Of a DNA stretch of 64,000 bases, positions 7,526 to 59,400 are shown piece after piece. How positions within the stretch are numbered: the first letter of the stretch is position 1; every line of letters starts with the position of its first letter. The position numbers and the translations under genes are program-made. Origin of the DNA: Raja brachyura (lineage: Eukaryota). Under the pieces are notes generated by a model. It did no database searches, was not told where the DNA came from, and saw only the letters and a program-made list of their open reading frames with translations. Location: assembly GCA_963514005.1 (NCBI GenBank), contig OY740811.1, forward strand, positions 27,466,001 to 27,530,000. The letters run 5' to 3'.

Positions 7526-7651
7526 TCACAATGACTGGAGAAACATCAGCTTTTGCCAGGGCCACAGTCAGTGAAGGACAGCCCAAAGCAGAGATTGTGG
7601 ACACAACTGCTCACAGGACTCGTGGCTATTCCACCATGCATTCCCCCAAGC

Positions 7652-7938
7652 GATAGACAATAGGTGCAGGAGTAGGCCATTAGGCCCTTCGAGCCAGCAC
7701 CGCCATTCAATGTGATCATGGATGATTATCCACAATCAGTACCCCGTTCCTGCCTTCTACCCATATCCCTTGACTCCGCTATCTTTAAGAGCTCTATCTA
7801 ACTATCTCTTGAAAGCATCCAGAGAATTGGCCTCCACTGCCTTCCGAGGCAGAGAATTCCATAGATTCACAACTCTCTGGGTGATTCCACAGATTCACAA
7901 CTCTCTGGGAGATTCCACAGATTCACAACTCTCTGGGT
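7652..7938 (-). mobile_element. 5'-truncated CR1 LINE 3' end with a 28-bp triplication at its 5' junction
   Basis: gacaataggtgcaggagtaggccat...ggcagagaattcc matches the same family at 28735-29070; agattcacaactctctggg recurs at 7863, 7891 and 7919. Confidence 0.8.
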
Positions 7939-8397
7939 CATCACTTTTGTGATGAATCAGGAGCCCATCATGAAAATCAAGAGAGGTCCATAACCCGCCC
8001 AAGACTAATTTCAATCCAGTCCCATCTCAAACCCATAGCACGTGTACTCTTAGATTATTATCACAATAGCAATGCTTCTAATCTGAATAAAAATCACTTA
8101 TGAACACATCAGGGCTTCTGATCTGATGGCCAACTGTAAATGGAGTAAAGAAAATCTTGGAGTCACAAGGAACTGCAGATGATGGTATCTTCAGCAAAAT
8201 ACAAAGTGCTGGAGGAACCCAACCATTCAGGCAGCATCTATGGACGGAATGGACAGGGACCCTTCTTCAAAACTTGATGCCCTGAAAAACCTCAATGCCC
8301 TGAATTCAGGTTTCCACCTCAAGGCAGGTCTAAGGCCCAGTGCAGTAACCCAGGCAAAAATACCCAGTGTGCAAGGCTGGGTTATTGCACTGGGCCA

Positions 8398-8565
8398 TAT
8401 CGACCGATTGACCAAATGGTGCCAGCACAATAACCTGGCTCTCAACACCAGGTAAACCAAGGAAATGATTGTGGACTTTGGAAGGGGTAGGATAGGGACC
8501 CACAATCCTGTTTATATCAACGATGGTGGAAAGGGTCAAGAACTGCAAATTCCTGGGCGTGCATA
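8398..8565 (+). mobile_element. Rex1/Babar LINE RT fragment, inverted relative to the adjacent copy
   Basis: Encodes IDRLTKWCQHNNLALNT; homologous to 9140-9303 on the opposite strand. Confidence 0.75.
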
Positions 8566-9812
8566 ATTCAAGTCAAGTCAAGAGAGTTTATTGTCATGTG
8601 TCCCAGATAAGACAATGAAATTCTTGCTTACTGCAGCTCAACAGGGTAATGTAAACAAAAATACAGAACAGTTCAGTTCAATATACATATAAATAAGCAG
8701 ATAAAGTGCAATAGGCTGTTACAGTTCAGAATCTGTTTCTTGGCGAGTTTAATAGCCTGATGGCTGTTCCTGAACCTGGATGTAACAGGTTTCAGGCTCC
8801 TGTACCTTCTGCCCGATGGAAGTGGAGAGATGAGTATGTGGCCAGGACGGTATGGGTCCTTGATGATGTTGGCTGCCTATTTGAGGCAGCGACTGCAATA
8901 GATCCCCTCGATGGTGGGGTGGTCGGAGCCGATGATGGACTGGGCAGAGGTTACGACTTTCTGCATCCTCTTCCGCTCCAGGACGATGCAACCAGCCACC
9001 ATGCTTTCTACTGTGCACTTGGAGAAGTTCGAGAGAGTCCTCTTTGACATGCCGACTCTCCTTAGTCATCTCAGGAAGTAGAGGCGCTGATGTGCTTTCT
9101 TTATGATTGCATCAGTGTGCTGGGACCAGGAAAGCCCTTTGGAAATGTGCACACCCAGGAATGTGAAGTTCTTAACCCTTTCCACCATTGTCCCGTTGTG
9201 GATTCCTATCCTACCCCTTCCAAAGTCCACAATAAGTTCCTTGGTTTTGCTCGTGTTGAGAGCCAGGTTATTGTGTGGGCACCATTTGGTCAATCAGTCG
9301 ATCTCACTTCTATACTCTGACTCGTCCCCATCAGTGATTCGTCCCACAACAGTGGTGTCGTCAGCGAACTTGATGATGGAGTTTGCGCTATGTCCGTCTA
9401 CGCAGTCATGAGTATAGAGTGAGTACAGCAGAGGGCTGAGCACGCAGCCTTGATGTGCTCCCATATTGATTGTTGTAGAGGATGACACATTTCCACAAAT
9501 ACGGACAGACTGTGGTCTGTGGATGAGGAAGTCGAGGATCCAAATGCAGAGGGATGCGCAGAGACCCAGATCTGAGAGCTTGGTAACTAGCTTGGAGGGG
9601 ATGATTGTATTAAACGTCGAGCTGTAGTGAATGAATAACAGCCTGACATATGAGTTTTTGTTGTCCAAGTGGTCCAGAGCGGAGTGGAGAGCCAGTGAGA
9701 CTGCATCCATCATTGATCTGTTATGGCAGTAAGCGAACTGCAATGGGTCGAGGTTCTTGTCGAGGTAGGAGTTGATATGCGCCATAATCAACCTCTAAAA
9801 GCACTTCATCAC
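8566..9812 (-). mobile_element. Rex1/Babar non-LTR retrotransposon, 5'-truncated, frameshifted RT
   Basis: ORFs 9294-9791 ([13 protein letters not shown]...[17 protein letters not shown]...[12 protein letters not shown]) and 9066-9293 (KWC..NNLALNTSKTKELIVDF...KAHQRLYFLR); the 3' end has AATAAA and a (CTTGA)n tail near 8570-8592. Confidence 0.9.
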
Positions 9813-13826: not shown

Positions 13827-15600
13827 TTCCTTTTTTTCCCCGGAGATGCTGCCTGACCTGCTGAGTTCTTCCAACGTTCAAAAGTCAAGAGTGTGCATTG
13901 TGTTATGTCCCAAACACAACTGCATTCTTACTTGTAGCAGCACAACAGAATATGTAAACATAGTATTCTGTAAACAATATAATAAACGATAAAGTTCCGT
14001 AAAAACAAACAATATTGCAAAAAGACTAAACCAATGCCCCCAAGTGTGTGTGTCTATCTCCGGTAAAGACCAGCATGTGGAGTTTCTTACTACAATGTTC
14101 TGCTCTGGCCCGGCTGCCAGCCTAAAGGATCCCGGCACAAAACGTCATCTATCCATTTTCTCGTGAGTTTTCGCGTTACTCCAGCACTTTGTGTCTTTTT
14201 ATTTTGTAAACCGGCATATGCAATTCCTTGTGTCCACACAATGAACCGTAGATGGTGGAATCTGGATGTAGGAAGGAACTGCAGATGGTGGTTTAACCCG
14301 AAGACAAGAGTGCTGGAGGAACTCCGCGGGTCGGGCAGCGTCTGCGGAGGGAATGGACGGACAGGCGACGTTTGGGGGTCGCGATCCTCCCTCAACCCCG
14401 TGTCTCTGCGACGTCCTTCCGCTGATGCCAGGGTGGCCGGAGGAAGTCACATGAAACGATGTAGGAGAAGCAGGGACTGGAATCTGGAGGATTAGGTGCA
14501 AATATACAAGCAAAGGACTTTCAGGGGGCGTAAATTCAATTTGGTAGCGGCGAGAGCCGGTAAACAATGTTTGCAGGTGTGATGCGGGCTGCGAGAGTGG
14601 AAAGATTGCAGCTTTGTGATGCAGTCTACCGTGAGCTAATGTGTAAATTAGTGAGTAGAAGTCAAGCAGTCAGGGCACATTCTCCAATAATAAATCCAAA
14701 CAAGCCCTAGAGTCATTAGAGGAGCGTATTCGCACAAGGAGGTTTGGATTACGGAGCGACGGATCTCGCTAGATTGGGGTGGGAGGGGGGAGGTGCGGGG
14801 GTTGGCAAATGGGACCAAGGTACGGCGCGAATCGGCAGTCTGCTGTGGTTTAATTAAATAAGGTGTTAAGGGATTAGGTGGAACTTGTCATTAAAATCCA
14901 TTCAGGACTAGGCGACGGTGTTTTACTTTCGAGAGGGAGATGCGGCTGGTTGGATTCATGAGGCTGCATTAATGAAATCAGATTGTACCACAGCCCCTTG
15001 TAGCAGCGTCGCGGCTGGGTTTTGTTTTCTGGGAATGACTGGGATCAGCGCTGCCCTTCACTTGGCCTGGCGCATCACGAGAACCCAATCATCCTCGCCC
15101 CCCCCCCCCCCCCCCCCCCCGAGAGAGAGTGGCTCACGGTTCTCACAGTCTGAGACCGGGAGAGTGGTGCCGTGTCTGTAGTGCCGTGGCCGAGGCTCGG
15201 TAGCAGAGGCGACCCCCGCCTTCTCCTGACCGACCAACAGGACTTGATACTGGGTCCGCGTTGTTGGGAGCAGAGGGCAGTGACTCCAGCGACATTGGGC
15301 TCGGCACGGTCTGGGAAATTCGGCTCAAATTATGGGGAGAAGGCAGAAGAATGGGGTTAGGAGGGAGAGATAGATCAGCCATGATGTGATGGGCCGAATG
15401 GCCTAATTCTGCTCCTATCACTTTGAATGTATGAAAACGGGAGGCAACACCTCAACCCTCGTGTTTCCTCTGCATGACCGTCAATCCCATCGATCCCAGT
15501 CCATAATGTTGGGTGAACGATGTAAGAAATGTGTGGGTTACACAAAAAGCTGGAGAAACTCAGCGGGTGCAGCAGCATCTAAGGAGCGAAGGAGATAGGC

Positions 15601-15628
15601 GACGTTTCGGGTCGAGACCCTTCTTCAG
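15601..15628 (-). ncRNA. Minimal type-I hammerhead ribozyme core (pax7 sense strand)
   Basis: CUGAAGA-A-GGGUC(UC)GACCC-GAA-ACGU-C: conserved CUGANGA and GAAA boxes, stem II, palindromic ACGU in place of helix III, and UC cleavage site. Helix I is only about 2 bp. Confidence 0.65.
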
Positions 15629-15636
15629 ACTGTTTT

Positions 15637-15664
15637 CTGAAGAAGGGTCTCGACCCGAAACGTC
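15637..15664 (+). ncRNA. Minimal hammerhead ribozyme core (antisense to pax7)
   Basis: Identical 28-nt core on the plus strand. Confidence 0.6.
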
Positions 15665-15949
15665 GCCTATCTCCTTCGCTCCTTAGATGCTGCTGCACCC
15701 GCTGAGTTTCTCCAGCTTTTTGTGTAACCCTCGATTCTCCAGCATCTGCAGTTCCTTCTTTAACACATAAGAAATGTGTGTGTGGGGTGGGTGGGGGATG
15801 GCGAAAATGAAGGGGAAAATACGATGAATTAAAGACTATAACAAATATCTAAACGGTCATGAGATTGTGGAAGGGTTGGGTCTTAGAGTCATAACGCTAT
15901 GCAGCACGGAATGAGGCCCTTCGGCGCATTTTGTCCATGCCAACCAAGT

Positions 15950-16740
15950 TGGCATACAGGGCTGCAGTGAAGAAGTGTGCAAAAGAGAAAAGAACAGTGT
16001 GCAGAATACAGTGTTACAGCTAGAGAAATTTCTGTTAATATTTATACCTCGGAACCTGAAGCTCATGACCATCTCCACTTTAGCACCACTGGTACAGACT
16101 GGGGCGTGTACCCCACCCCCCCTCCCAGCGTTGGTGATCAGCTTCTTTGTTTTGCTGATGTTGAGGGGGAGGTTGTTGTCTGGACCCTGCTCTTAAGCTC
16201 TCAATCCCCTTCCCGTACCCTGTCTCATCATTGTTTGAGACCTGGTCCACTACAGAGGTGTCATCTGCAAACTTGTAGCTCAAGTTAGAGCAGAAGTTGG
16301 CCACACAGTGGTGTGTAATTAGGGAGTTTGGCAAGGGATTGAGAAAGCAGCCTTGCAGAGGTCCGGTGTTGAGAATAATCGTGGAGGATGTTTTGTCCCC
16401 AATTCCTACTGAGTTCAGACCCAAAGGTACCGACAGTCGACAAATCTCCCTCCTGATTACGGTCTATGGGTCAGAAAGTCGATCCAATTGCAGCGGGGGG
16501 GGGGGGGGGGTTCTGAGTCCTAAGTCCAGTTTGGAGATGAGTTTGGGTAGAATTATGGTGTTGACGGTGGAGCTTTGGTCAATAAATAGTAGTCTAATGA
16601 AGGTGACTTTGTTATCCAGATGTTCCAGAGACAGGGTCAGGGTCAGAGAGCTGGCATCTGCAATGGACCTGTTGCAGCAGACGGCAAATTGAGGCTGTAT
16701 GGGAGGCTGAAGTTAATGTGTGCCATGACCAGACTGGTCG
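15950..16740 (-). mobile_element. Rex1/Babar RT fragment, degraded
   Basis: ORF 16080-16424: ILNTGPLQGCFLNPL...YKFADDTSVV. Confidence 0.8.
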
Positions 16741-22607: not shown

Positions 22608-22703
22608 TATGTAGATAAAAATATTGGAGAAACTCAGCTGGTGAGGCAGCATCTATGGAGCGAAGGAATAGGTGATGTATCGGGTCGAGACCCTTCTTCA
22701 GCT
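22608..22703 (-). mobile_element. 96-bp solo PLE-derived hammerhead element with a 14-bp TSD
   Basis: ttacatatttagtg at 22594-22607 and 22704-22717; the core is mutated (GAUAC instead of GAAAC). Confidence 0.88.
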
Positions 22704-28190: not shown

Positions 28191-28730
28191 ACAAACGTTT
28201 AGAAAAATAGAAAATAGGAGAAGGCTATTCAAGCTACTTCAATGATTTGACTCAATCATGACTGATCATCCATTTCACTCCTCCATTCTTGCCTTCCCCC
28301 CCCCCCATATGTTTGATCTCTTTGCATGAAGAATTATATCAACTTTCTTTCTGAATATGTTTAATACATTTTGGGCTGAAAAGTTGAGGTGATGCCAAGG
28401 TCTGATCAGCCATGATGATTTTGAATGGCAGGACAGGATCGATTGGCCAGTTCCTTCTTCAATTTTTCATGTTCCATCTTCACCATAGCACACACAGAAA
28501 CCTTGGAATTTATTCAGACTAAAAAAAAAGACACAAAGTGCAGATGTAACTTAGTGGGTCAGGCTGCATCTCTGGAGAACATGGATAGGCAACGTTTTGT
28601 GACCCTTCTTCAGAATGATTGTGTATTTGGAGATTTGGAAGGAGGAGGCGGGGCAAAGCCTGGCAAGTGATAGGTAGATACAGGTAAAGAGGGTTTGATT
28701 GGCAGATGGTTGGATAAAGAACAGAGATTA

Positions 28731-29790
28731 AAACATAGAAGAATAGGTGCAGGAGTAGGCCAGGACCGCCATTCAATATGATCAAGGCTGATCATCTAAA
28801 ATCAGTATCCCATTCCTGCTTTTTCCCCATATCCCTTGATTCCTTTAGGCTTAAAAGCTAAATCTAACTCCCTCTTGAAAACATCCAGTGACTTGGCCTC
28901 CACTGCCTTCTGTGGCAGAGAATTCCACAGATTCATAACTCTCTGGGTGAAAATGTTTTTCCTCATCTCAGTCCTAAATGGCCTACCCCTTATTCTTAAA
29001 CTGTGCACCCTGTCTCTGGACTCTCCCAACATCAGGAAAATTTTTCTGCATCTAGTCTGTCCAATCCTTTAAGAATTTTATGTTCTTAAAGCCCTCGGGA
29101 AAAAGATACCGCAGCATAAGGAGCAGAACATCAAGGTTCTGCAACAGCTTCTTCCCACGAGCCATCAGACTCCTGAATGCCATGTAATAGGCTGCCACTA
29201 GTGTCTATTTATCCTTTTCACCCATGCCTATCCTTCGGTTAATTTATTGTGTTGCACAGGGAGCCAAATGCAACGTAATTTCGTTTGGAACTGCATGTAT
29301 CAATGTATTTCTAAATGACAATAAAGTTTGTTTGACTTTGACTTTGACTTGTTTCTATAAGATGATCTCTCAACTTTCTAAATTCCAGTGAATCCAAGCC
29401 CAGTCGACCCATTCTTTCATAATATGTCAGTCCCGCCTTCCCGGGAATTAACCTGGTGAACCTACGCTGCACTCGCTCAATAGCAATAATGTCCTTCCTC
29501 AAATTAGGAGACTAAAATTGCACATAATACTCCAGGTGCGGTCTCACCAGGGCTCTGTTCAACTGCAGTAGGACCTCCTAGCTCCTAAGCTAAAAACCTC
29601 ACGCAATGAAGGTCAACATGCCATTAGCTTTCTTTACTTCCTGCTGTACCTGCATGTTTACCTTCAGTGACTGATAGACAAGCACACCCAGGTTTTGTTG
29701 CACCTCGTTTTTTCCTAATCTGACACCATTCAGATAATAATCTGTCTTCCTGCTCTTGCCACCAAAGTGGATAACTCACATTTATCCACA
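28731..29790 (-). mobile_element. CR1 LINE 3' 800 bp inserted in the PLE
   Basis: ORFs 29311-29502 (RKDIIAIERVQRRFTRLIPG) and 28802-29032 (HSLRIRGRPFRTEMRKNIFTQRVMNLWNSLP). Confidence 0.9.
29087..29350 (+). mobile_element. Rex1/Babar 3' end nested inside the CR1
   Basis: GKRYRSIRSRTSRFCNSFFPRAIRLLN, then AATAAA and a (GACTTT)n tail. Confidence 0.85.
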
Positions 29791-31259
29791 ATAACCACAA
29801 TAATGTGAAGCCAGAGGAAGGGATGCAGATGGGGAGGGGTTGGGGGGAGGGAGAGGGGAAAAGGCGGCTGGATAGTGGGAGAAATGGATGTGCTTCCAGG
29901 TGGGACATATGGAAGAGGAGGACTGGGGGTAGAAGGGAAAAGGGGAGGAATTCTTGGTTAGTAGTTACCTAAAATTGGAGATTCAGTGCACATACCGCTG
30001 GGTTGTAAACTATTCAAGGTGCTGTTCCTCCAGTCTCCGTGTGGCCTCACACCGGCAATGGAGGATGCCCAAGACAGAAAGGTCAGTATGGGAATGGGAA
30101 GGAGAGTTAAAATGGTTAGCAAGCATTCACGCTGATGTATTGGAATAGATAATGGTGAAGCCTGTCTATGGTACAGGGGCAGCCTGGAGTTGAGGAACAT
30201 AGGTAATTGCTTTGTATGGAGTTGATATCCCTTCAAACAGTGTGGTCCCAGATGTGTGAAGGATCCTGCAAGATATCAGTTAACCACCGAAGCAGACACC
30301 CATGCGATCTGATACACATTATAGGCTGGACCCAAACACACCGTGGATAAGGAAAAGAGAATGACTCCCTCATCAATCACAGGGATTTTGGGATTTCACA
30401 TTCAATAAGGAGAAATAAATCAAGTTCTCCATAAAACAACATCCTGACCAAAAACATTTATCGGTTGTGGGGGGTTAATGGATGGAATAATTCCAGGTAA
30501 TGTATCGCAAAAAGCCAGAAACTACGCATGGACCTGACTATTCACGACGCCACCGTTTACTGTAGATAGCTTTTCTTGTTCCTGTTTCTAATTTTTCACC
30601 CAAACTGCCAGGCTGTGGTCGCAGAGTACCAAAGGCTTGTGAGGGTGGTGAGGTGGGGGTGGGAGACATGTGCTCTCCCTCCCTTTCATTGCCTTGTTGC
30701 ACCATCTTCTCACCAATCATCCCCACTCTCAGCCCACGCCCCATCCTCCCACTCCACACAATCAGGTGTCAGGGCATCATAAACAAGGCTTTGAAGTGCT
30801 GCCTGTCTCCAGGCAACAGGAGGTGACACCCAAAGCACTGGCTCCTTGTCGGCAAACAGCAAGGCACAGACACTGCAAAGCCTTTCAAAGCATCTCACGT
30901 AAAATGGAAGCGTTTTGGAGCCTTATGATCCCTTGTAAAACCAGGGCAAGCCTGTTACCAACTCTCAGAATTAACAGGTTGCAAGAGACATTTCAAAAGT
31001 CACCTGAACTGCTTGTCAAGAGTTTAAAGAATTAAAGATAGATGCTCAGTGTCTCTGTCTGTGTGGCAGCATTTATACATCAGTTCTCTCTCTGTCCATC
31101 CCTGGGATTCTTGCTTTCTGCCTCCTCTCGCTACTCCCACAGACTTTCCTCTCTGTCTTGTCTTTTCCTTTGATCTTTTTCACTCTATTGCTCAACACAA
31201 GTCATTCTCGGACTTGTTGTATCCAAACTTGAGGAAAGAGAAAGGAAAATAAAATGATT

Positions 31260-35449: not shown

Positions 35450-35910
35450 AGTACCTGGGATGTACCCCAGCTTCTGAAGCCAGGTATAACCAGGGTACGC
35501 CCAGGTTCATTGTACAGTGAATATCAGGTTCATTGTACAGGGTATACCCCAAGTTCAGGGTACAGGCTATACCAAGGGTACAGCGTATACCCAGCTTCAG
35601 GGTACAGGGTGTACTCATGGTACAGGGTATACGCAGGTTCAGGTCACAGGTTATAACCCATGTTCAGGGTACAGGATATACCCAGGTTCAGTGTACAGGG
35701 TATACCCAGGTTCAGTATACAGGGTATACCCAGATTCCGTGTACAGGGTATACCCAGGTTCAGTATACAGGGTACACCAGGTACCGTGTACAGGGTATAC
35801 CCACGTACAGGGTATGTCCCAGGTTCTGTGCAGGTATATCCAGGTACAGTGTACAGGCCATGTTCAGGGTACAGAGTATACCCAGACTCAGTGCCCGGAG
35901 TATATACTGG
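35450..35910. repeat. 24-bp minisatellite containing the palindrome GGGTATACCC
   Basis: Consensus gggtatacccaggttcagtgtaca; palindrome at 35698, 35722 and 35746 (period 24); about 18-19 degenerate units. Confidence 0.85.
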
Positions 35911-38439
35911 ATTCTTGCTCCTGATGACTCTTGCTGGACGAAGAACCCTTACTAAACTTGACTGGGACAGATCAGACTTCCCGCTGACCAGTTGACCAAT
36001 TGGTTCATACTCGTGCCATTGGGGACACAAGGCTTTCACCAGGGTGAGGTCCTCAGCTGAGCAATTGGTGGTGCTTTGGACACATATTTGATCTGCAAGT
36101 GTGGACAAAAGAGTGGAGGAAACTCATTCGAGAACAGTTACACCTCAACCTGTCCTCAGTAATTTCCCAGCACTGGTGCCCAGCCAGGATCAGTAATAGG
36201 AAAGATGCAAAATGCTGGTGGAATAGGATCATTCCCAGACAAACATGGTTCATTTCTTATCAATAATCTCTGGCTGCCTGGCCACAGTCAGAGGTTGTCC
36301 CATTGTCACTTCCAGTTGGTTGGGGGGGGGGAAAACAGTTGCATTTCACCGAAGCTATAAAAACCATTTACACGCGGACAACCCCAGTCCAGCTCTGGTT
36401 CGGAGTCGAGCTCTTTGAAAATGGATCACAAAAATATTGACGGGACCAAAGGACTGGGCCATTCCTTGCTCTCTCAACACCAGACATGGTACAAGATCTC
36501 CAGGCACCTGGTAAACAGCCATCAATTGGTAGTGAGTGCTGGCAGGGATTACAACCACATCAAGGTATAAAGAACTCCTTGAGTTCTTTATACCTTCACT
36601 GGTCAGGATTTTCTGATTGGCCATGGCGGAACCCTGGCAGTCGTCAATGTAACAGCCAGTGAAGCTATAACACATCTGGCTGGAACATTTTCAGAAGTAG
36701 AGTTTACAGACTGGACAAATAATCCCAAAATAGTTAGGTCAGGTCCTACCGCTTCAGGCTACAAAAGCACGGAAACAAAAACACAGTTCTTATCCAGTTG
36801 CTCTACATGTGACTCCAGTCCAACACCAACATGATGTGACTGGCCTCTGAAATTGTCAGGTAAATGCCTAAGGATCAGCTTCTGGGGCATTTCAGGACAG
36901 GCAGTAAATCTGGGCTCAGCAAAGGCAACATATCAAGAGTGAAATACATGAATAATTGAAACAAGAATCACATTCTGAAGAAGGGTTCCATCCCGAAATG
37001 CCATCTATACATGATTCCCAGAGAAGCTGCCTGATCCTGTTGAGTTACTCCAGCACTTTGTTTTTATTTTTTAAACCAGCATCTGTATTTTCCTGTCTCC
37101 ACATCGAATTTACGTCCTCATCAGGGAGCTGTCCCTGACGGACCCTCTCACTCTGCCTGAGATGTACACTGTTCCTTTCCTTCCTCTTGCAAAATGGCTC
37201 CCGGTACGCCCTCGGTATTAAAATCCTCCTCCTGATGTCCATGGCTCTCATCCCCTCCCAATCCTTAGAACTTCCTCCAGCCTCTCTTTCCCTGAGATCT
37301 CTGCATTCCTCCCTGTTGATCCCTTAAGCATTTATAATCTCCATCATTGGCAGCTGTGTCTTCCACTGCCTGGGCTCCACACGCAAATTCCCACCCCACT
37401 CTCTCTATTACGCCCTTAAAATCTAGTTCCTTGACCAAACGTTACCTGCCCGATGTGTATCATTTAGTTGAGGACCGGTAAATTACTTGTTAACATTGCT
37501 GTGATTGCTAATTTAAAGGTGTTATTTAATTACCAACCGTTAGGGTGTCAGTCAGGGCTGCAATGTGCAATGACCAGTGTATTGTGGGCTGACTTGTGTG
37601 TACAACCCTTGAGCAGACCCTAGCCTGGTGTGACTGACCTCCATGCACATGGTTGGATTAAGCCTCTGAACCTGAACTGTCCATGTACTGGAAGGGGGGT
37701 ATCCTTGGAGACCGAGATGGAATGAGGCGTCTGCAGACACAAAGTATAATTTCTCTTCACAGCAAGGCTCAAGCACAAGTAACTGGTCATCTCGCGGCAA
37801 GAGATCTCAGCCTCTGACTGTGTTGTGACAGAGTGAACACCATTAACAATTCTCACACAGACAACAGGGCAACACCTTGCAATTACTATCTTGCAGTTTT
37901 AGTGCAGGGGCTGAACATCATGTGGCAGGTTTGGTGCTTTGCCTAAAATCAGCAGTCACTGCTCCATGGCTGGATACTGTGTCCAGTATGCCATTCAGTT
38001 GCAGTCAGTCATGTTACTGTGATTGCAGTGAGAGGGGAAACCAGTGCTGGAGAATAAACAGGAACAAGCTAGCAAGTTTCCATTCAAAGAGAAAGCTGGG
38101 CTGATTGTAAACTGATTTGCATTATATGACCATGAGAACATCCCCACAGGGAAGAGGCCATCCAGTCTATACCTGTGCTTATACTTCTGCTCCAAGCCTT
38201 CCTTTCAATTCTCCGCTTCATGCCCTCCAGTGGGACTCTCAATCTCACCACATACCATGCTCTCAGATCCCTTGCATAGAACAGTACAGCGCACAACAGG
38301 CCCTTCAGCCCACAATATCCATGCCGAACATGATGCCAAGTTAAACTAATCTCCTCCATGTGTATGCTCTCCATTCTTTGCATATCCATGTGCCAATCTA
38401 AAAGCCTCTTAAACGCCACCCTTGCGCCTTATCACTATC

Positions 38440-45690: not shown

Positions 45691-45837
45691 ATCGGGAATC
45701 ACTCCAACCCGCCCCACTCCATCAGGAATCACTCCAACCCGCCCCACTCCATCGGGAATCACTCCAACCCGCCCCACTCCATCGGGAATCACTCCAACCC
45801 GCCCCACTCCATCGGGAATCACTCCAACCCGTCCCAC
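45691..45837. repeat. 30-bp near-perfect minisatellite, about 4.9 units
   Basis: atcgggaatcactccaacccgccccactcc at 45691, 45721, 45751, 45781 and 45811. Confidence 0.95.
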
Positions 45838-47836
45838 CGGAGAAAGCGAATCTGCAAATTGTCCTTGGCCGTAGTTTCTTTTTATTAAACGAGCATCTAA
45901 CAAAGGTTTCGAATCGGTGATAACTATAATAGTGGATGGTTCCATTTTTGTGCGGTAGACATGGGTCTAGAAACATACAGAGAGAGAGAGAGAGAGAGAA
46001 CGACACGGAAAGTGAGGAATGGAGCGGGCACAGTTGTGCTGAAGAAGCCGAGTTACTCCAGCACTCTGTGTCTTGTTTGTAAACCAGCATCTGCAATTCC
46101 TTGTGTCTACAATCTATGCTCGAGTGACTCAATGGATCGGGCAGCATCTCTGTTAAATGATAGGTTTGACCAAGTTCTTTGTATTTTCTGCTTCTTTTTT
46201 TTCAGATTCCGAGAACTTTCGGATGAATCGGTGGGGCTTCTGCCCCGCTCACTAATCTCCTGCATCCAGGGCTCAAAGATCTTTCGCATTTGGCCTGGGT
46301 CTAACTAACGGGAGCGGCTTCACTTCACCAGATATCCATATCGGTAACCAGTTATGTATAAGCATTAGACCTAGTCTGCGGGATTTGCCGAGTGAATGAT
46401 GCATGTGTCTCAGCTTTTACTCCGGCCAGCCCTCGCCGCTTTCTCCTTTGTGCAATCACCAGCTTTTGTTAGATAATCAGTCGCCTGATGGGATGAGGAA
46501 TAGATAAAGATTCTTGGCATCTGGCGGCTAAAATGAAAGGGGGATTAGGTACCGGCCGCTGCACACTCCATGGCACATGGGCTTGCTATTCCCCTCATTC
46601 AGGATACCATTGATTATATCCAACCCTCCGTGTTTCGTTACATCTCTCCGAGATGTTTGTATTCGCCGGACAATTCGCCGGACAAAACAAAAAGCTAATA
46701 GCTCTGGTGCATGTGAACTACTGAGACCCTTAAAGGGGCAGTCCCATCGCTCCCCGCAGTGGCTATCATTTAGTTGAACAGTGAAATAGGAACGGTGCTT
46801 GTTTAGTTTAGAGATACAGCAGGGAAACTGACCATTTGGCCCACCGTGTCCACGCCATTTCGGCCCACCATCGATCACTCGTTCACACTAGTTCTAAGTT
46901 ACCCCACTTTCTCACCCACTGTCGCTTTCCTCCCACATTAGGGGCACCGGCCCCTGAAATATCTGCATCTAGTATAGGCCATTTGCAGCACACAATTGAA
47001 ATAGTTCCTGCAGTGTGTGATGTGGGGATAAGGTGTAGCCTGGAATGGTGCCCATAGGACAACAACTGTCCATTTTACCCCGGGCTCTGCAAAAGCTGTT
47101 AACGTTAATAATCAGGAAAAAGTTATAGGCACGTGGAGACTTTTGAGTTAATAAAGGAGATTGGTTAAAGGCAAATAATGTTTGACTGAGGAAGGTTCTG
47201 AAGAGGTAATGGACAAGGTTGGTTCAGGACATGTGGTTATTATAATTTTGTTTGAGAGAATCCACACAAAGGCTGGTTTGGGAAATGACACCTGTGACCT
47301 CAGGATCAGTGGCTGCATGAATATGAAATTGGCAAAGCGACAAAAGTTAAGAATCATGGTGATCTTCAGAAATGAAGATGATAGATGTGCTATTCCCCAG
47401 GGATCTATGCCAGGACAAATGCTTTTGTTTCAACCTAAAGTAATGACTGGGAGGAGGTAACATTTCAGAATTTGCATGACAGTAATACACTGCAAAAGAC
47501 CACGGCTAAACTGGCACAACAAAGAGAGGTGATATACTTTAACAGGAAGAACAAACACAGAACAGTGGATAATGCTACTACCCCACAGCCCCAGTGACAC
47601 AGATTAATTGTTGACATTGGGCACTACTGTAAATTCCCTCCCCAATATGCAAGTAAATGGTAAAATAAATTCTAAAAAGTTGGAAATTAATTGGCAGCAA
47701 TAACATGCAATGCCATGAGAAAATAAGACAATGGGGAATTGGACGAGAGGTTTTTCTGTTAGGAAACAACATGAATTTAATGATCCAAATGGTCTTTTGT
47801 AATAAATAAGTGTGTGACATTGACTTAAGCAATATT

Positions 47837-48035
47837 ACCCCTCTCCACCCCCTCCTCTCCCTGCTCCCTCACTCCTCACCTCTCCCCTATCGCACTTACC
47901 CACTAAACACAATGTTTAAATAAGCGGGGGAGGGGAGGAGGAGAAATTTTATTTAAACATTGTGTTTAGTGGGTAAGTGCGATAGGGGAGAGGTGAGGAG
48001 TGAGGGAGCAGGGAGAGGAGGGGGTGGAGAGGGGT
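47837..48035. repeat. Perfect 87-bp inverted repeat with a 25-nt spacer
   Basis: 47837-47923 is the exact reverse complement of 47949-48035. Confidence 0.92.
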
Positions 48036-48299
48036 TATGGATGGAGGGAGGGAGTGACTGAGGGTAGGGAGTGACTGAGGATAGGGTAAAGGTGAAGGAG
48101 GGAATGGAGGAGGAGAGGGGAAAGAAGAGGGATGGTGAAGAGGAGGGGGAGGGAGTGTATGAGCCACGCCTGCGCGGTTGGGCCCTATGGGTGAGTGATG
48201 GATATTGTGTTGGGGGAACAGGTTGCGTTGGGGGAACGTGTGAGTGGTGGAATATTGCATTGGGTGAACGGGGCCCAACAAGTACCACTTGGTTTAGTT

Positions 48300-48770: not shown

Positions 48771-51609
48771 TAAAGAGTGGACAAAGAATTGGTGGACTAG
48801 TAACGATTCTGAAGTCTGTCAAACTGAGATACACCATTTATTTTGTGGAAGCTTTAGTTCAGGATTAGAATTGTCAGGTGTAGAGAGGTACAGTTTTGCA
48901 TGCTATCCTGTCTGATCAAATAATACAATACATAAACACACTCAAGCCAAACACTCGTGCAATAGGTAGAGCAAAGAGGAAGATACAGATTGCAGAATAT
49001 AGTTCTCAGCATTGTCATACACCAGTTCTAGAGACAAAGTCCAATGTCCACAATGGGATAGATGTGTGGGACTGGTTCCTTTGACGTAAAGAATTCTGAT
49101 ATTCTCACATTTTAAAAACTGAGATATTCCCCAAATATTATAGAAATAGGACAGTCCTTACAAGGTACAGAATGGATATAGTTCCCAATTACCATAACAA
49201 ATAAATGATTCTTATACTATACAGAACTGAGTATCTCATTCTATTCGAGTATCTAAAGAATGGGATAAATAGTACATCAAACTCTGATACAATAAAAAAC
49301 AGTGTATAGAACTTGGAAATTAGATATAGAATTAGGATAACTTTAAAACCAATAGACTTAGATATTTTCTGCAATGCATATTGCTGCCATTGTTCTTACT
49401 GTGTATAAAAAATAGAGTTATCCCTTGTTTGGAACTGCAGAATCATTAAAAAAAACAGTGGACTTGCAAAAGATTAGGGGTCCAAGTACATAAATATATA
49501 AAGGATGTGTTAAAAAATTAATCACAAATGAATGATGCCTTTTTTATATTAACGACGGGAGAACAGGGACCGGTGGGGGTGGAAGTTCTGACACTCATAA
49601 GATCAGATCTGGTGAACATTGCTCAAAGGCACAACCTGCATTTATTTCAAAGTTCCAGCATCTATTCATTCACAGATTGATTCAGGAGGATTTATTGGCC
49701 TTGGCAAGTGTGCACCCTGAATTTGTAAAACTATACCTGGACTCCAGGGTGCAGTTAGCACGAGAAACTATAGAAACAATATACGTTCAATTGAGTACGT
49801 TTAGTGGTAATCAGAGTAAAGTTTCAATTGAGCATAAGCATAGACTGATGGAAACTAATTTTGGGGAGTGTGTGACTGGGAACATTGTCAAAATAACAGA
49901 TCCAAACCTTTGAGGTTTGAAGCTGGGCTATACTTCTAAGAGCAGATTGAGGTAGAAGATTAGAAATCTCTTGTACAAATGATAGTCAATGCTGGGTCAA
50001 TTGCCCATCTTAAATCTGGAATTAAATTGTTTTTTGTTAATAGAAGGCATTAGGAAATAAGATGGATATGTAGAGTTAAGTCACTAATCAGCTGTGATCT
50101 GACTGAGGAACAAGCTTGAGGGATAATCGGTCTCCTTCTGTTCCTACATTCCCTGTTTGTGTGCTTTGATTGTCCCTGTTATGAATTGAACTCTGGACCT
50201 ATTACAGTATGTAGATATTTTCTACAATGTTTAAAGCTGTCTTAGCTTTTGTATATTGGATGTCCCCATAGAGCATAGAACTGGGATATTCCTACAATAT
50301 CTAGATCTGGAATAGATGCTGCAGGATGTGAAACTGTGGAGTTCCTGCAGAATATTTAGCAGAGATTGCCCCTGTAGCATACGGATCTGAGGTAGTCCTA
50401 ATGCTGTTCTGCACTGCACATTTACGGGTTTAGTAGAGCCCTCTGTGTCTGGAGCTAAACAGTTCATACAGAGTGCAAGACCAGGAAAGTTCCTAAATTG
50501 TGTAAGACTGAACATGTATAAGTGTTTAGGAAACTGCAATCATTCCCACAGTTTACAAAAGTGGGATTGTTCCAATGTAATAGAATATGTTTCCCTGGTC
50601 CTGAGAACTGGAATTATCACCATTCTCTGCATTACTGTGGTTGGATTCAGTGAATGAAGCTAATATTCATTCAGTTTGTAGAATTGGAATGGTTCATTGA
50701 GTGTGTGGAAGTTACACATCGCTCGTAAAACTGGGATATGGTGTCGCAGGCAGATGTGGAAGTGGGTTTATCCCTGTATTATATTGAATTGGGATTACTG
50801 CTGCAACATTTTGAACTGTGTAGATCAGGAGAAGCCCTGAAGTATAAATAATTCTGAATCTCGCAGCATGTACAGATGGGATAGATTTCAATGTATGTAA
50901 GAACGGAAGAGCTCCCATACTGCAATAAAAAGACCACACAGATTATAAAACTATGTAAACTGCAATAGTCCTTACAGTATATAACACTAGGTTGGTTGCT
51001 ACATTTTGAAAGAGTTTTAGAACTGAAAGGGTTAAGGGTGTACGTGCAGAGGAGGAACTTTAACAATTTCATAAAATAGTTATCTCCACATTTGCAAAAT
51101 GAGTTGGGCATTTAAAACTGGGATAATTTCAATTAATCTCACCCTGAAAGAACCAGATTGAGATTGCCCCAGTAGTGTGTGCAATAGTGTACAGCGCTGA
51201 GTTAATACAGTCTGGAAAGCTATATAAATTCTGGACTGCAATGTCCACACAATGTGAACATGCTGTTCGAATAGTTCATGCATCTGGCACAATCTGTACA
51301 AAGTCCAGAATTAACCGAAGGACCCTGGAGTGTTTAGAAATAGGTTTATGTAATGGGTGCAGTTCCTCCATGACTTGGATTTGGTACAGTGCCGTCATTA
51401 TAGACAACACATGTGTTCTCTCTGCTTATGAAGCAAGTATGGTCCATCCACCATAGGACAGGTGCTACTTCTCCACACTATTGTAATGGTATGTTATGTC
51501 CATTTTATGGAATAGGGTGCAATTCTTACACTACGGACCCGGGGAGGATATATATCCTCCTCTGCTACATGGATATGTAGTCATCCGGATATTGGTCAGT
51601 TGTAGTCCC

Positions 51610-52605
51610 TCCAACGCATAGAACACATTCGCCAACATTTCTGCCAAATTCAACGTGATCCCACCAAATGTCCCTGCCCCACCCCTTTCTGTGTTTCTGT
51701 AGAGACCACTCTCTTTATAACTCCTTAATTCGCTCATCCCTTCCCACCTAACATACACCCTTCTCCATGTAGTTTCCTCAACACGTGTCCCTACACCTCC
51801 TCTCCCACCTCCATCCAGAGACCCCCACCATCACTTCCAGATGAGACGTAGGTCCACGTGCACCTCCCCCAACCTTGTCTATTGCATTCAGTGCTCCCAA
51901 TGTGTCCTTTACATTGGCGAGACCAACCGTAGACTGGGCGACCGATTCGCTGAAAGCTTGCACGTTGTCTGTCAAGGCCTACTCGCTCCACCGGTTGCTA
52001 ACCGTGTTCTCAATCCCACGCCGGCCTCCTCCTCTGCCAGCGAGAGGCCACACACAAACTGGAGGAACCGCACCCTCATATTCCGTTTACGTAGCTTACA
52101 ACCCAATGGTATGAACATTGAATTCTCCAATTCAAGTAATACCCATTGACACCTCCTCTCTTTCCCCTCTTCCTCACTTCCCCCCACCCCCATACCAATG
52201 CGCAAACATCTCTCCCACCACCCCAGTAACTCATCGCCAAGTCCCATATTTCATTTCATCTCTTTCCCCTCCCCTGTACCGTTTCACTCCTATCCCTCCC
52301 TCTGGCTTTACATTTCACCCTTCCCTCATCTCTCCATATCTGACACCTTTTTATCTTCTTTTGCTCTGTAGCCTTTGTCACTTATTCCACCCATCAGCCA
52401 ATTAAACCCCACCCCCCTCACTTGAGTCCAACTATCACTTGTCAAACTCTGTCCTACTCCCTCTCTCTTTTGTAGCTTTCTCCGCCCTTTTCCATCAGTC
52501 TGAAGAGACGTAAAGACCCGAAACGGCGCCTGTCCGTCCATTCCGTTCACCGATGCTGCTTGACCCGCTGAGTTCCTCCAGCACTTTGTGTTTTGCTTAC
52601 ACAAC
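51610..52605 (+). mobile_element. Penelope-like retroelement (Neptune-type) 3' part: linker, GIY-YIG endonuclease pseudogene and terminal repeat with a decayed hammerhead
   Basis: ORF 51841-52149: TCTSPNLVYCIQCSQCVLYIGETNRRLGDRFAE...LIFRLRSLQPNGMNIEFSN (VY..YIG.T.R...RF). Upstream NTCPYTSS linker. Downstream cagtctgaagagacgtaaagacccgaaacggc at 52496-52527 plus the family body. Confidence 0.9.
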
Positions 52606-53794
52606 AATGTTGCGTTTACCGCAGTAGCGGGCATTGTCCCTCAACTATATGGAGATGTTTGTCCCCTCTCCTTTATAGAAATGCCATTCTACGAGATGCG
52701 CAGGTCGCTACTCTGTGGTGCTGAAGTAGTCCTTGCTTCAAGACCGTGCGCAGTGTAGAACTAGTAGAGTGAGTTGAGCCGAGGTGGTGACTGGAGTACC
52801 TGCAACTGGGATATCCCCTGCATTATTTATCACCTGAAAATTCCCCATAGCTTTGAGAAGCGGCATGTTCCCTGCAGTGTGCAGGCTGTGTGGAAGCGGT
52901 CTGTGATACCCTTCAGACCAGCGGAGATGGTCAATGTTTAAAACGCGTTCCTCCAATCGGAGTCAAGCGATCATCTCACTTCCTCAATCCGTGCCAATTT
53001 TTGGTGTGCCGGCCCCGGCCCACAGAGGCGGGGAACCGCCAGTGGAGACGGTGCAGACAGGCAGGCGGTTCGTCCGTTAGAAATGGGACTGGTGAGGCGA
53101 CGGGTGGCACTGAGTCAGGAGGCAGGAGCCAAGGAGACACAGGGAACTGCAGATGTTGGAATCTTGAGCAAAACACAAAGAGTTGGAGGAACTCAGCGGG
53201 ATATAGGCGGCATTGCGGGTCGGGACCCTTCTTCGGACTGATGGCGTTGGGGGGGGGGGGGGGGAGCTGGAACAAAGCCTGGCAAGTGATAGGTAGATAC
53301 ACGTGAGGGGGGAGCGGAACCCTCTCCCTGCTTATTAAAGCCATTCGGACACCCAGCCCGTTTACGCCGGCCCCCGGAGGAGTGGATGCCAACAGAGGGG
53401 GGCCCGCAGGAGGCGAGCAGAGGCGGTGTCTCCCCAAATTTCAGAGCCTTGTTCCCGCAGCTGACTAGCATCCCGACGCAAACAGCGCCGCTGAAGAGCC
53501 CGGGGAGCCGGCGCTGACTTCAGCTCAGTCGCACTTTACAGGAAGGCGTGTTTCCTGCAGCTACTTGCGACGGCTGGAAACCGGTTAGGAGGCGGATGTA
53601 TTTGGCGGAGAGTAAATCAGGTTCTTGGACATGTCTCCGTAAACAGAGACAGTGGCGTCTGTTACCGGAGCCGCTGTCCCACCCGGTCTCACACTCCACG
53701 CTCCTTGCTTCCTTGGACACGTTTCATCGGCTTCAGACGAACACTTTGTGACAACTTTACCGACTGCCACAAATCCGATGTATTTTGTACTTTT

Positions 53795-56665: not shown

Positions 56666-56761
56666 GGGTTACACAAAAAGCTGGAGAAACTCAGCGGGTG
56701 CAGCAGCATCTAAGGAGCGAAGGAGATAGGCGACGTTTCGGGTCGAGACCCTTCTTCAGAC
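56666..56761 (-). mobile_element. 96-bp solo PLE-derived hammerhead element with a 10-bp TSD; intact core at 56732-56759
   Basis: Identical to 15535-15630; tacattgggg at 56658-56667 and 56765-56774. Confidence 0.9.
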
Positions 56762-57689: not shown

Positions 57690-59400
57690 TTGCCAATATT
57701 ACACCCTTGCTGAAAACAAATCAGTACAAATTGACCAGTCAGTTTAACCTTGGTGGTGGATAATGTTCTGGAAACAATAATCAGGGACAGAATTTGCCGC
57801 CACTCAAGTAAGTGTGGATTGATAAAGTAATCTAGCAAGGATGTGTTTAGGCCAATCAAGTTTAATTAACTTAATGGTGTTTTTTTTGTTGTAGTAATAG
57901 AGAGAATAGATGAGGGAAGTATTGCTGGGCTGGTGTTTGGATGTTAATAAAGTGCTACACAATGAACTCGTCGTCAAGATTAAAGTTCATATAATGAAAA
58001 GGACAGTAGCAGCATGGATAGAGAATTGACTCTGTGACAGGAAACACAGCGGCAGTAAACGACTGCTTTTTGGACTGGGAAGAAATGTACAGTTGGGTTC
58101 TCAGAGTCATCCAGCAGGGAAACAGGCTCTTCGGCCCAACTCGTCCGTGCCGACCAAGATTCCCCATCTAAGCTAATTTGACGCTGTTTCTCCAGAGGTC
58201 GGTAAAAGGGCCGTGTCTTTTCTGAATGTATCATAAAGATTTTGTTACTATCTACAAATTTTCAAATGAGACAAAACCCGTGGGCAAAGGAGACAGTGAG
58301 GAGGATAGCAGTAGGCTTCAGGGAAATGTGAAGAGGCAGGTAGAACAGATGGACGTGGCAGATGAAGCTTAATGCTGAGAAATGTGAAGTGTTATATTTG
58401 GATGGGAAGAACGAGAAGAAAGGATAACAAAGTGGAGGTTGCAATTGTTAAAAGGATATCAAAACCCAGGGATCTGTGGATACATGTGTGTGGAAACACA
58501 AGGAACTGCAGGTGCTGGTTTTGAAAATAACACAATGTGCTGGAATAACTCAGCGGGTCAGGCAGCATCTCTGGAGGGCATGCATAGAGACATTTTGGGT
58601 CAGGACTCTTTTGCAGACTGCTAGTAGGAGCGGGTAGTGATCTGGAAAAGTGATGGGGCAAGACATGTGGATGGTTTGTTGAAAGAGCAGGACGGGTTGC
58701 AAAGTTATGATGATATTTTATGAAACTGGTTTATCCACAATACAGTAATGGGTGCTGTGCTTTAGAAATATGGGAAGGATTTAGAGACAGGGTTGTACAG
58801 CCAGAAGCGGGCTATCGGGCACATTGGACCCACGCTGATCAACAAGCACCTGGATACACTAATCCTATGCAGACCCCAGTTTATTTGGCCTGCATCCACC
58901 TAGATTTCATCCTTCACACAAGGCAGACACCAGTGCACAAGGGCAAGTAACCTACAATCCGGGGGCAACACATGCAGACTTTGTACGTTGCACCGGAGGT
59001 CAGGATTGAACCCACAACTCTGACTCTGGAGGCAGCTGTTTCCACAAGGTGCGGATGTCAAGAAGGGGCTTCCTGATTCCAGTGATGAGGGACTTTAATA
59101 ATGGTGATAGGCAGGGTTCTCGAGATACAACAGACACAATATTCATAATACAACAGAGGAGTTTGTATCATCGATACAACTGTGAAGTATGCAGGCACAG
59201 TAGATAGAAATAAACTAATCCCATTAGCGGAGAGGTCAAACTAAGGGTCAGGGAATAAAGATGATTGGCAAAAGAACCAAAAAGGACATGGGGAGAAACC
59301 TTTCCATGCAACAAGTGTTTTGGTTCGGGATTGTGCTGCCCAGGGGAGTAGCAGTCTGGTTCAGTTACAGTGCCCACATGTGAGCTGGATACATGTTTGT
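57690..59400 (+). mobile_element. Fragmented old CR1 ORF2 interrupted by SINE and PLE-derived inserts
   Basis: Remnants of N.RPVSLT.VV..LETIIRD, WQMKLNAEKCEVL.FG and YSNGCCA/DMGRNL..Q; inserts near 58105-58180, 58495-58620 and 58790-59050. Confidence 0.6.

What the first reader, a model, noticed from the sequence alone, without database searches (positions are those of the whole stretch)
51610..52605. Autonomous-type partner in the same window: GIY-YIG PLE ending in the same hammerhead terminal repeat
Seen: the GIY-YIG endonuclease reading frame is followed by a pyrimidine-rich UTR, then cagtctgaaga...gacccgaaac and the same body (gatgctgcttgacccgctgagttcctccagcactttgtg) as the short elements. 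A second copy lies on the minus strand at 28516-30125. This links the short elements physically to a PLE and indicates which RT/endonuclease family mobilises them. Both copies here are truncated and dead.
Basis: partly seen in the sequence, partly recalled or inferred. Interest (0 to 1): 0.7.

Follow-up and report, generated by a model that had tools for sequence, protein, structure and literature searches.

The report
Dead Penelope-like retrotransposon end in elasmobranch
This is the broken tail end of a known kind of jumping gene in a shark or ray genome, and its last 100 letters are the same repeat that litters the region as dozens of tiny copies, so the tiny copies are products of this jumping-gene family rather than an unrelated element.

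Summary
Largely confirmed, but ordinary. 51606-52601(+) is a 5'-truncated, frameshifted Penelope-like element (PLE), probably Neptune clade: end of RT thumb, zinc-linker remnant, GIY-YIG endonuclease, ~360-nt pyrimidine-rich UTR, decayed minimal hammerhead and terminal-repeat body. Named relatives are from rays, skates and sharks. The second copy is real but split by a 1.05-kb insert; a third copy keeps UTR only. The terminal repeat has 44 hits in the window (6% of it) with PLE hallmarks: head-to-head inversions, optional one-sided tail, 10-14-nt target duplications in three units. A zebra-shark RT-endonuclease protein reads through into hammerhead-compatible codons 381 nt past the endonuclease (383 nt here). 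Corrections: neither endonuclease-linked copy has an intact hammerhead or any RT core, and their repeats are only 73-76% identical to the young 15636 element, so the link is family-level; 'autonomous partner' is unproven (no genome held). One open point: 27 of 30 copies reaching the hammerhead's 5' edge stop there, not at its cleavage site, suggesting a fixed RNA start or reverse-transcription stop. The scan noted similar stubs on other genomes before.

The parts
51606..51745 (+). 5'-truncation point and remnant of the C-terminal end of the PLE RT thumb region (frameshifted)
   Evidence: Frameshift-aware alignment to P0152 runs 51606-52125, 105 of 168 aligned residues identical; summed contig depth rises from single-copy level in bin 51606-51656 in 4 of 4 runs
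51746..51834 (+). Remnant of the CX2-5CxxC zinc-finger-like linker (partly deleted)
   Evidence: tblastn to P0017/P0033/P0006; relatives show C-X3/4-C-XX-C upstream of the endonuclease
51835..52139 (+). GIY-YIG endonuclease, dead: two cysteines between the VY and YIG motifs kept, both histidines of the CCHH finger lost, internal deletion and frameshifts near 52008 and 52075
52140..52498 (+). Pyrimidine-rich 3' UTR (upstream part of the pseudo-LTR), ending in TCAG
   Evidence: Collinear with copies 2 and 3, above 500 of 500 shuffles; in other genomic copies contigs join the endonuclease end to the block at 52291-52296 (table 5)
52500..52527 (+). Decayed minimal type-I hammerhead core (CTGAAGA, broken stem II, GAAA, CGGC)
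   Evidence: not among the 6 of 44 intact cores
52528..52601 (+). Terminal-repeat body shared with the short elements; this copy lacks the optional tail
   Evidence: HMM hit 52499-52601, model positions 1-99 of 118; loose ends behind 52597 in 4 of 4 runs give the tail sequence that other copies carry (table 7)
29802..30153 (-). Copy 2, upstream half: last third of the endonuclease and first part of the UTR
28750..29801 (-). Insert splitting copy 2; reads like a CR1-type LINE 3' fragment with a nested opposite-strand non-LTR fragment (labels recalled from motifs; no Pfam hit)
   Evidence: translations; Pfam 0 of 5
28522..28749 (-). Copy 2, downstream half: rest of UTR, hammerhead with stem II deletion, body, no tail
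53143..53317 (-).
   Evidence: 115 of 150 identical to copy 1; HMM positions 2-118
15537..15755 (.). Young short element: head-to-head inverted pair, arms 93 of 93 identical, tail on the + arm only, 13-nt target-site duplication, both hammerhead cores intact
56668..56760 (-). Young solo short element, 93 of 93 identical to the 15636 element, 10-nt target-site duplication, begins 5 nt before the hammerhead core
22617..22701 (-). Solo short element with a 14-nt target-site duplication, begins 2 nt before the hammerhead core

Best explanation
51606-52601 is an old, fixed, 5'-truncated insertion of an endonuclease-positive Penelope-like retrotransposon of the Neptune type in a cartilaginous-fish genome. 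It does nothing now. In the active element the RT-GIY-YIG protein nicks DNA and reverse-transcribes its RNA starting inside the terminal repeat (at the end of the body, or about 25-35 nt further on, which gives the optional tail), running back through the uncut hammerhead, the UTR and the ORF until it stops. This copy ran about 1 kb, copy 2 about 0.6 kb, copy 3 about 0.17 kb. The 41 other hits are the same 3' end made by the same family of proteins, but most stop at one place, the 5' edge of the hammerhead. Shown: homology, collinearity, truncation, decay, tail/no-tail ends, head-to-head pairs, target duplications, the pile-up of 5' ends. Inferred from published PLE work: target priming, internal initiation, use of uncleaved RNA. 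My guess for the pile-up (not shown): the RNA's own 5' end lies there (about 0.4; an initiator-like TCAKTC sits at that spot), so internal priming in the 5' repeat of a full transcript or in a mini-transcript gives a complete 95-125-nt cDNA; otherwise an RT stall at the folded ribozyme (about 0.25) or other causes.
For: Protein: 544 relatives; the named ones are mostly skate, stingray, devil ray and shark proteins, with longer relatives carrying RT plus C-terminal endonuclease; linker cysteines and CCHH conserved in relatives, as defined for Neptune/Nematis in PMC8557442 (passages). Link in a near-complete element: P0161 (Stegostoma tigrinum, RT C-half + thumb + linker + endonuclease) reads through its UTR and ends in codons compatible with CTGANGA-N-GGG-N6-YCC-GAAA-CGT, 381 nt after the endonuclease end motif versus 383 nt in copy 1; 3 of 276 proteins fit the strict pattern (P0161, P0028 at 187 nt after its endonuclease end, P0141 near its C-terminus), 0 hits in 3 shuffles of all proteins (the shuffles used loop lengths 5-7, the real scan 4-8). 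Other genomic copies: contigs joining the endonuclease end (52132) to the body (52552-52569) number 9 in X1, 10 in X4, 5 in X11, 0 in X3, among 15 of 676 joints shown. PLE hallmarks in the short copies: model ends are bimodal, 19 of 44 at positions 83-99, 22 of 44 at 113-118, none at 100-112, 3 shorter; 9 of 14 close pairs are head-to-head, 7 of these 9 with the tail on one arm only and none with two; duplications of 13, 14 and 10 nt in 3 of 30 units (null >=10 nt: 1%). These match PMC3846280 (tail optionally on one of the inverted pLTRs, head-to-head most frequent, solo pLTRs; passages) and PMC11167929 (internal initiation explains the tail; uncleaved RNA is the main substrate). Age: the 5' junction is bridged by contigs of organisms A, B and D (12 differences in about 630 nt, 32 in about 570 nt, table 8). 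Pile-up: 27 of 30 copies that reach model position <=12 have no clear UTR homology upstream; about 4 expected under uniform truncation; the three units with target duplications begin 2-5 nt before the core or at an inverted junction.
Against: No intact full-length element was seen as DNA (collection scans empty). The P0161 evidence is back-translation compatibility, not sequence. With a stub every 1.5 kb, some endonuclease-to-body joints could be chance neighbours; the spacing in those contigs is not given. The one-sided tail pattern is not significant on its own (P about 0.09 for 7 of 9), and 3 of 12 close opposite-strand pairs are tail-to-tail. 27 of 30 units show no clear target duplication. 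No covariation supports the proposed hairpins (85% of cells paired, but 195 of 500 shuffles as high), RNAalifold predicted no pair, and body-plus-tail folding z-scores were only -1.8 to +0.6 in 4 copies. Stem I of the hammerhead is only about 2 bp by eye. Neptune versus Nematis was not resolved by a tree. The initiator match rests on four homologous copies (effectively one observation), overlaps the ribozyme's own letters, and the DPE consensus is missed at +28 in the best-preserved copies. Short or decayed UTR remnants under about 20 nt would escape the upstream test (25798 and 58502 are borderline).
Confidence: 0.85

Rival explanations
1. One reading: the short elements are a separate non-autonomous family with its own short master copies, transcribed by themselves and mobilised in trans by this PLE's protein (a SINE-like partnership). 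Compatible with the PLE identity; it differs in where the short RNA comes from.
For: Sharp shared 5' edge (27 of 30). A young subfamily exists: 15537, 15636 and 56668 are 93 of 93 identical, and 54378, 57095, 22617 are 87-89% identical to 15636; all six start at the hammerhead and none has UTR. The endonuclease-linked repeats differ by 24-27% from it. pLTRs can act as cis signals in trans (PMC3846280); non-autonomous PLE derivatives are published (PMC8557442; bioRxiv 10.64898/2026.07.22.740005).
Against: Only three long copies were sampled, so a young full-length master may simply lie elsewhere. The majority sequence of loose ends before 52552 in 4 of 4 runs resembles the repeat of endonuclease-linked copy 2 (table 7), i.e. 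the commonest subfamily is attached to an endonuclease. No Pol III boxes. Most solo copies have lost the letters upstream of the putative start.
Confidence: 0.3
2. The short elements are non-LTR retrozymes: hammerhead cleavage of tandem arrays gives unit-length circular RNAs that are reverse-transcribed and reinserted.
For: Retrozymes are proposed to derive from pLTRs and were found in the one chondrichthyan sampled (average consensus 363 bp; bioRxiv 10.64898/2026.07.22.740005). Two tandem neighbours exist in the window and some contigs show short tandem repeats of the body ('goes back 40').
Against: Copies are not tandem arrays (2 of 14 close pairs tandem); they begin at the 5' edge of an uncut hammerhead, not at the cleavage site, and end at body or tail; head-to-head inversions and tails are PLE insertion features.
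Confidence: 0.07
3. The short repeat is unrelated (tRNA-, 7SL- or LINE-derived SINE) and sits behind the endonuclease fragments by chance or by secondary insertion, since it is so dense.
For: One stub per about 1.5 kb makes chance neighbours common. The stem II hairpin looks superficially like a tRNA T-arm (my impression).
Against: Three copies show collinear UTR-plus-repeat; same spacing in P0161; no tRNA, A-box 0 of 44, B-box 1 of 44; no poly-A or microsatellite 3' end in the alignment.
Confidence: 0.02

Closest known systems
Neptune clade of endonuclease-positive Penelope-like elements (PMC8557442, passages)
   Same: Single ORF order RT - CX2-5CxxC linker - C-terminal GIY-YIG with CCHH finger (in relatives); 5' truncation; inverted 5'-adjacent copies; optional tail; hammerhead in the pseudo-LTR.
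   Different: This copy is dead and lacks the RT core; targeting to microsatellites, suggested for Neptune, was not seen at the three insertion sites with clear duplications; clade not confirmed by a tree, Nematis not formally excluded.
Minimal type-I hammerheads in PLE pseudo-LTRs (Cervera and De la Pena 2014, PMC4209133, parts 1-2 of 4 read)
   Same: CUGANGA, one unpaired base, G10.1-C11.1 stem II, GAAA, palindromic ACGU with no helix III; mostly solo copies 'probably related to truncated PLEs', some pairs on opposite strands.
   Different: Stem II here is 3-4 bp (paper: 7-8 bp in Schistosoma), stem I about 2 bp; density is far higher (44 hits in 64 kb, against about 4,000-9,000 per genome reported for coelacanth and Xenopus); cartilaginous fish are not mentioned in the parts read. 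The core of the finding's own copy is broken.
PAc (Poseidon of Anolis carolinensis), internal initiation of reverse transcription (PMC11167929, parts 1-2 of 4 read)
   Same: Hammerhead followed about 60-100 nt later by two alternative ends (tail or no tail); inserted copies contain the uncut ribozyme.
   Different: Poseidon lacks the zinc linker; whether the ORF starts inside the hammerhead here is unknown; the paper does not describe a pile-up of 5' ends at the ribozyme edge in the parts read.
Animal non-LTR retrozymes as non-autonomous PLE derivatives (bioRxiv 10.64898/2026.07.22.740005, parts 1-3 of 5 read)
   Same: Short hammerhead-bearing repeats homologous to the pLTR of a PLE in the same genome.
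   Different: Retrozymes are defined as tandem arrays with a hammerhead in each unit; these are dispersed solo or inverted copies with tails and target duplications.

Membership tests
EN+ Penelope-like element | [quoted passage not shown] | tested here: met
   LVYCIQCSQCVLYIGET in P0001; relatives keep both histidines, the window copy has lost them by decay; Pfam GIY-YIG in relatives, none in the window copy
EN+ Penelope-like element | Telomerase-like RT upstream in the same ORF | tested here: inconclusive
   Truncated away in the window; present in relatives that are 58-63% identical over the retained part (P0152, P0158)
EN+ Penelope-like element | Pseudo-LTR with hammerhead downstream of the ORF | tested here: met
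   Copies 1 and 2; P0161 read-through at matching spacing
EN+ Penelope-like element | Partial-tandem structure: the same repeat also upstream of a full-length ORF | not testable with these tools
   No genome held; no elasmobranch DNA in the scanned collections
EN+ Penelope-like element | Inverted 5'-adjacent copies and optional 30-40-nt tail | tested here: met
   9 head-to-head pairs; bimodal 3' ends; tail on one arm in 7 of 9, P about 0.09 alone. The finding's own copy has neither inversion nor tail.
Neptune clade | CX2-5CxxC linker between RT and endonuclease (absent in Penelope/Poseidon, reduced in Nematis, modified in Hydra) | tested here: met
   Full motif in most relatives aligned; remnant in copy 1
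Neptune clade | RT phylogeny with named Neptune references | not testable with these tools
Minimal type-I hammerhead ribozyme | Intact core CUGANGA / stem II / GAAA / UH cleavage triplet | tested here: not met
   Broken in the finding's copy and in copy 2; complete in 6 of 44 copies
Minimal type-I hammerhead ribozyme | Self-cleavage (as dimer or protein-assisted) | not testable with these tools
   Needs in vitro transcription; no Rfam hammerhead match at E<=1; no covariation in stem II
Non-LTR retrozyme | Tandem array with a hammerhead in every unit | tested here: not met
   2 of 14 close pairs are tandem, neither with two intact cores
tRNA-derived SINE | tRNA-like head with Pol III A and B boxes | tested here: not met
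   ARAGORN 0 genes; A-box 0 of 44, B-box 1 of 44 with recalled consensus patterns
Non-autonomous PLE partner | Own short master lineage, distinct from the repeat of any full-length element | tested here: inconclusive
   Young subfamily has no endonuclease-linked member among the three long copies of the window; genome-wide test not possible

The most novel reading that the evidence does not exclude
The sharp 5' edge of the stubs is the transcription start of the element (initiator-like TCAKTC, +1 three bases before the hammerhead core). Internal priming then copies a complete 95-125-nt unit holding start site, ribozyme and priming signal, so cartilaginous fishes carry a minimal Pol II-transcribed, PLE-driven short element, or a strong-stop-like PLE product, at very high copy number. 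Their genomes would be a ready record of both the start and the stop of PLE reverse transcription.
Probability: 0.25. Interest if true: 0.6.

Novelty: new member of a known kind. Interest (0 to 1): 0.28.

Why it matters
The element itself is debris. Its value is as an anchor: it ties one of the densest repeats of this region (44 hits, 3,853 of 64,000 bases) to a Neptune-type PLE, so repeat libraries should file it there and not as a SINE or unknown. How PLEs start and end reverse transcription, and what the hammerhead is for, is still open in the papers read (PMC11167929, PMC8557442). The pile-up of 5' ends at the ribozyme edge, and not at its cleavage site, is a cheap genome-wide test of that question.

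Tried and rejected
Word-indexed search of P0001 against longer proteins: 0 of 170 candidates; the exhaustive search then found the family. Collection scans for elasmobranch DNA: viral contigs 0, metagenome contigs 74 stretches with none confirmed and 0, prokaryote genome contigs 0. Rfam: no hammerhead family among 13 matches at E<=1. No RNA holder listed among 21 runs. RNAalifold: no consensus pair; a first pair count used a mis-registered structure and was discarded, the corrected one shows no covariation above shuffles. blastp of repeat translations against 267 proteins gave nothing significant (best E 0.075); a loose back-translation pattern gave 21 hits, mostly inside the RT region, and was replaced by a stricter one. 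Splice-acceptor idea (polypyrimidine + CAG before the core, as for the D. virilis intron ending at helix I, PMC4209133 and PMC2377424): not favoured, because 17 solo copies share no upstream exon-like sequence (4 of 136 pairs above the 99% null, all involving UTR-bearing copies), copies with target duplications leave only 2-5 nt before the core, and copy 2 has CAT instead of CAG. DPE at +28: missed in the best-preserved copies. No target duplication found for copy 1. Summed contig depth rises from about 9 in the flanks to about 1.2e5 at the endonuclease end and 1.2e6 in the body in X1, same shape in 4 of 4 runs; the tool says this is no copy number, so it is not used as one. The 3' junction is covered by contigs of organisms B and D with only 28-30 nt on the element side, just under the tool's 31-nt bridging rule. 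Pax paired-box and octapeptide motifs (recalled) were not found in the window. Literature: searches returned no description of this repeat in sharks or rays; Repbase and Dfam could not be searched and may well hold it; PMC5785218 (dimer cleavage of PLE hammerheads) is not held; the bioRxiv supplements that list chondrichthyan retrozyme and PLE families could not be seen and may bear on novelty.

Full report
Setting. No genome is held for this window. It contains a homeodomain exon on the minus strand inside ORF 6794-7525 (Pfam Homeodomain, E 2e-15), which I read from memory as Pax3/7-type; the rest is repeat-rich non-coding DNA. The named relatives of the endonuclease are mostly from skate, stingray, devil ray, whale shark, zebra shark and bamboo shark, so the host is inferred to be a shark or ray.

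The observation. The stretch described is there. The frame 51826-52146 has no Pfam hit, but an exhaustive search gave 544 relatives at E<=0.001, best 2.8e-15, and the longer relatives carry RT and GIY-YIG domains in one ORF. Both histidines of the CCHH finger are lost. A tblastn of 267 relatives finds no RT core anywhere in the window. After about 360 nt of pyrimidine-rich UTR comes the hammerhead-like core at 52500-52527 and the body to 52601. The core is decayed: stem II is broken and the cleavage triplet reads GGC.

Second and third copies. The minus-strand copy is real but in two pieces, 30153-29802 and 28749-28522, with 1.05 kb of other sequence between; the halves align to copy 1 at 212 of 280 and 156 of 211 identities, and UTR-to-UTR scores beat 500 of 500 local shuffles. 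The insert translates like a CR1-type LINE end with a nested opposite-strand fragment (labels recalled, Pfam 0 of 5). A third copy at 53317-53143 keeps about 80 nt of UTR and has the tail.

Is the link general? DNA of an intact element could not be had. Two substitutes agree. First, P0161 from Stegostoma tigrinum is an RT-linker-endonuclease protein whose frame stays open through the UTR; its last codons fit CTGANGA-N-GGG-N6-YCC-GAAA-CGT, 381 nt after the endonuclease end motif, against 383 nt in copy 1. Only 3 of 276 proteins fit that pattern, the other two also downstream of or near the end of an endonuclease, and three shuffles of all proteins gave none. This is compatibility by back-translation, not sequence. 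Second, in public assemblies of organisms A, B and D, 9, 10 and 5 contigs (0 in the smaller run X3) join the endonuclease end to the body, and more join it to a UTR block, among 15 of 676 joints shown; the distance in those contigs is not given and some could be chance neighbours. The same call shows that the 5' junction of copy 1 is shared by organisms A, B and D, so the insertion is old and fixed.

The short elements. A profile of the terminal repeat finds 44 hits covering 3,853 of 64,000 bases (six shorter blastn hits were left out of the seed alignment). Their 3' ends are bimodal: 19 at model positions 83-99, 22 at 113-118, none at 100-112, 3 shorter. Of 14 close pairs, 9 are head-to-head, 3 tail-to-tail, 2 tandem; 7 of the 9 head-to-head pairs have the tail on one arm only and none on both (P about 0.09 by itself). 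Three of 30 units have 10-14-nt target duplications. These are the features described for PLE insertions in PMC3846280 (passages), PMC8557442 (passages) and PMC8969392 (passages). Six of 44 copies keep a complete minimal hammerhead core with the palindromic ACGT, as defined in PMC4209133 (parts 1-2 of 4). No tRNA, Pol III box or Rfam family supports another origin. Hairpins drawn for stem II and for body-plus-tail are 85% paired but show no covariation above shuffles, so structure is not demonstrated.

The repeats of the two endonuclease-linked copies are 76 of 100 and 68 of 93 identical to the 15636 element, about the same as most old stubs, whereas 15537, 15636 and 56668 are identical over 93 nt. 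The link is therefore at family level; the source of the young subfamily is not in this window. And a shared 3' end does not by itself make the stubs a separate non-autonomous family: solo copies are the expected product of 5' truncation (PMC4209133 says as much).

The one unexplained feature. Of 30 copies that reach model position 12 or less, only the three long copies show clear UTR homology upstream (0 of 200 shuffles), with 25798 and 58502 borderline; solo copies share no other upstream sequence (4 of 136 pairs above the 99% null). A uniform truncation rate taken from the 14 copies that end inside the repeat predicts about 4 stops in that zone, not 27 (rough, since some of the 14 are inversion junctions or later decay). 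The stop is at the 5' edge of the ribozyme, about 28 nt upstream of its cleavage site, so it is not made by self-cleavage; this fits PMC11167929 (parts 1-2 of 4), where uncut RNA is the substrate and RT starts inside the RNA, the tail being the stretch between two start sites. The four copies that keep their upstream letters match both initiator consensus sequences in full (TCAKTY, YYANWYY; Table 1 of PMC4581360, passages), with +1 three bases before the core; background 210 in 128,000 positions. These four are homologous, the match overlaps the ribozyme's letters, and the DPE consensus is missed at +28, so this is a lead only. In D. virilis Penelope the start lies 46 nt plus a 75-nt intron further upstream (PMC2377424, passages and section 15), so the arrangement would differ from the one mapped case.

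Mechanism, committed. An active Neptune-type element is transcribed from its upstream pseudo-LTR; its protein nicks DNA and primes cDNA inside the repeat; copies end wherever synthesis stops (inferred from the papers above). Copy 1 stopped after about 1 kb and then decayed (shown). The stubs are made by the same protein family; most likely they run to the RNA's 5' end (about 0.4), less likely they stall at the ribozyme (about 0.25). Whether the short RNA comes from full-length elements or from short masters of their own (about 0.3) is open.

Novelty. PLE pseudo-LTRs with minimal hammerheads, solo and inverted copies, and pLTR-derived non-autonomous repeats are all published (PMC4209133; PMC6765202, passages; bioRxiv 10.64898/2026.07.22.740005, parts 1-3 of 5, supplements not visible). 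Searches showed no paper on this repeat in sharks or rays (PMC3747384 and others seen as listings only), but curated repeat databases were not available. Two earlier notes of this scan on other genomes reached the same reading; they are not independent support. Verdict: a new member of a known kind, interest 0.28, with a testable side observation.

Noticed in passing
window 47833-48039: Long near-perfect inverted repeat, arms about 90 nt at 98.9% identity around a short G/A-rich loop; no clear second copy in the window; hits miRNA models only as a generic hairpin below gathering scores. Not related to the PLE repeat.
   Followed up: partly
window ORF 6794-7525 (-), residues 51-96: Homeodomain exon (Pfam E 2e-15), read from memory as Pax3/7-type; recalled paired-box and octapeptide motifs were not found in the window, so most of the window, the finding included, may be one long intron.
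   Followed up: partly
window 28750-29801 (-): Nested insertions inside PLE copy 2: CR1-like LINE 3' fragment interrupted at about 29056-29330 by an opposite-strand non-LTR fragment with a short repeated tail (labels recalled).
   Followed up: partly
window 9294-9794 (-), 16080-16463 (-): Fragments of a non-LTR reverse transcriptase unrelated to the PLE (Pfam RVT_1, E 2e-13, for the first).
   Followed up: no
window 35490-35995 and 45722-45966: Tandem minisatellites seen as repetitive translations in the ORF list.
   Followed up: no
protein P0272 (Rhinoraja longicauda, named receptor-transporting protein 3-like): A host 3CxxC zinc-ribbon domain followed by the linker and GIY-YIG domain of this PLE family in one predicted protein: exonised element, gene-model artefact or domestication; not examined.
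   Followed up: no
window 59279-59371 (+): Single weak tblastn hit (E 0.001) to the endonuclease C-terminus of one relative; may be chance.
   Followed up: no
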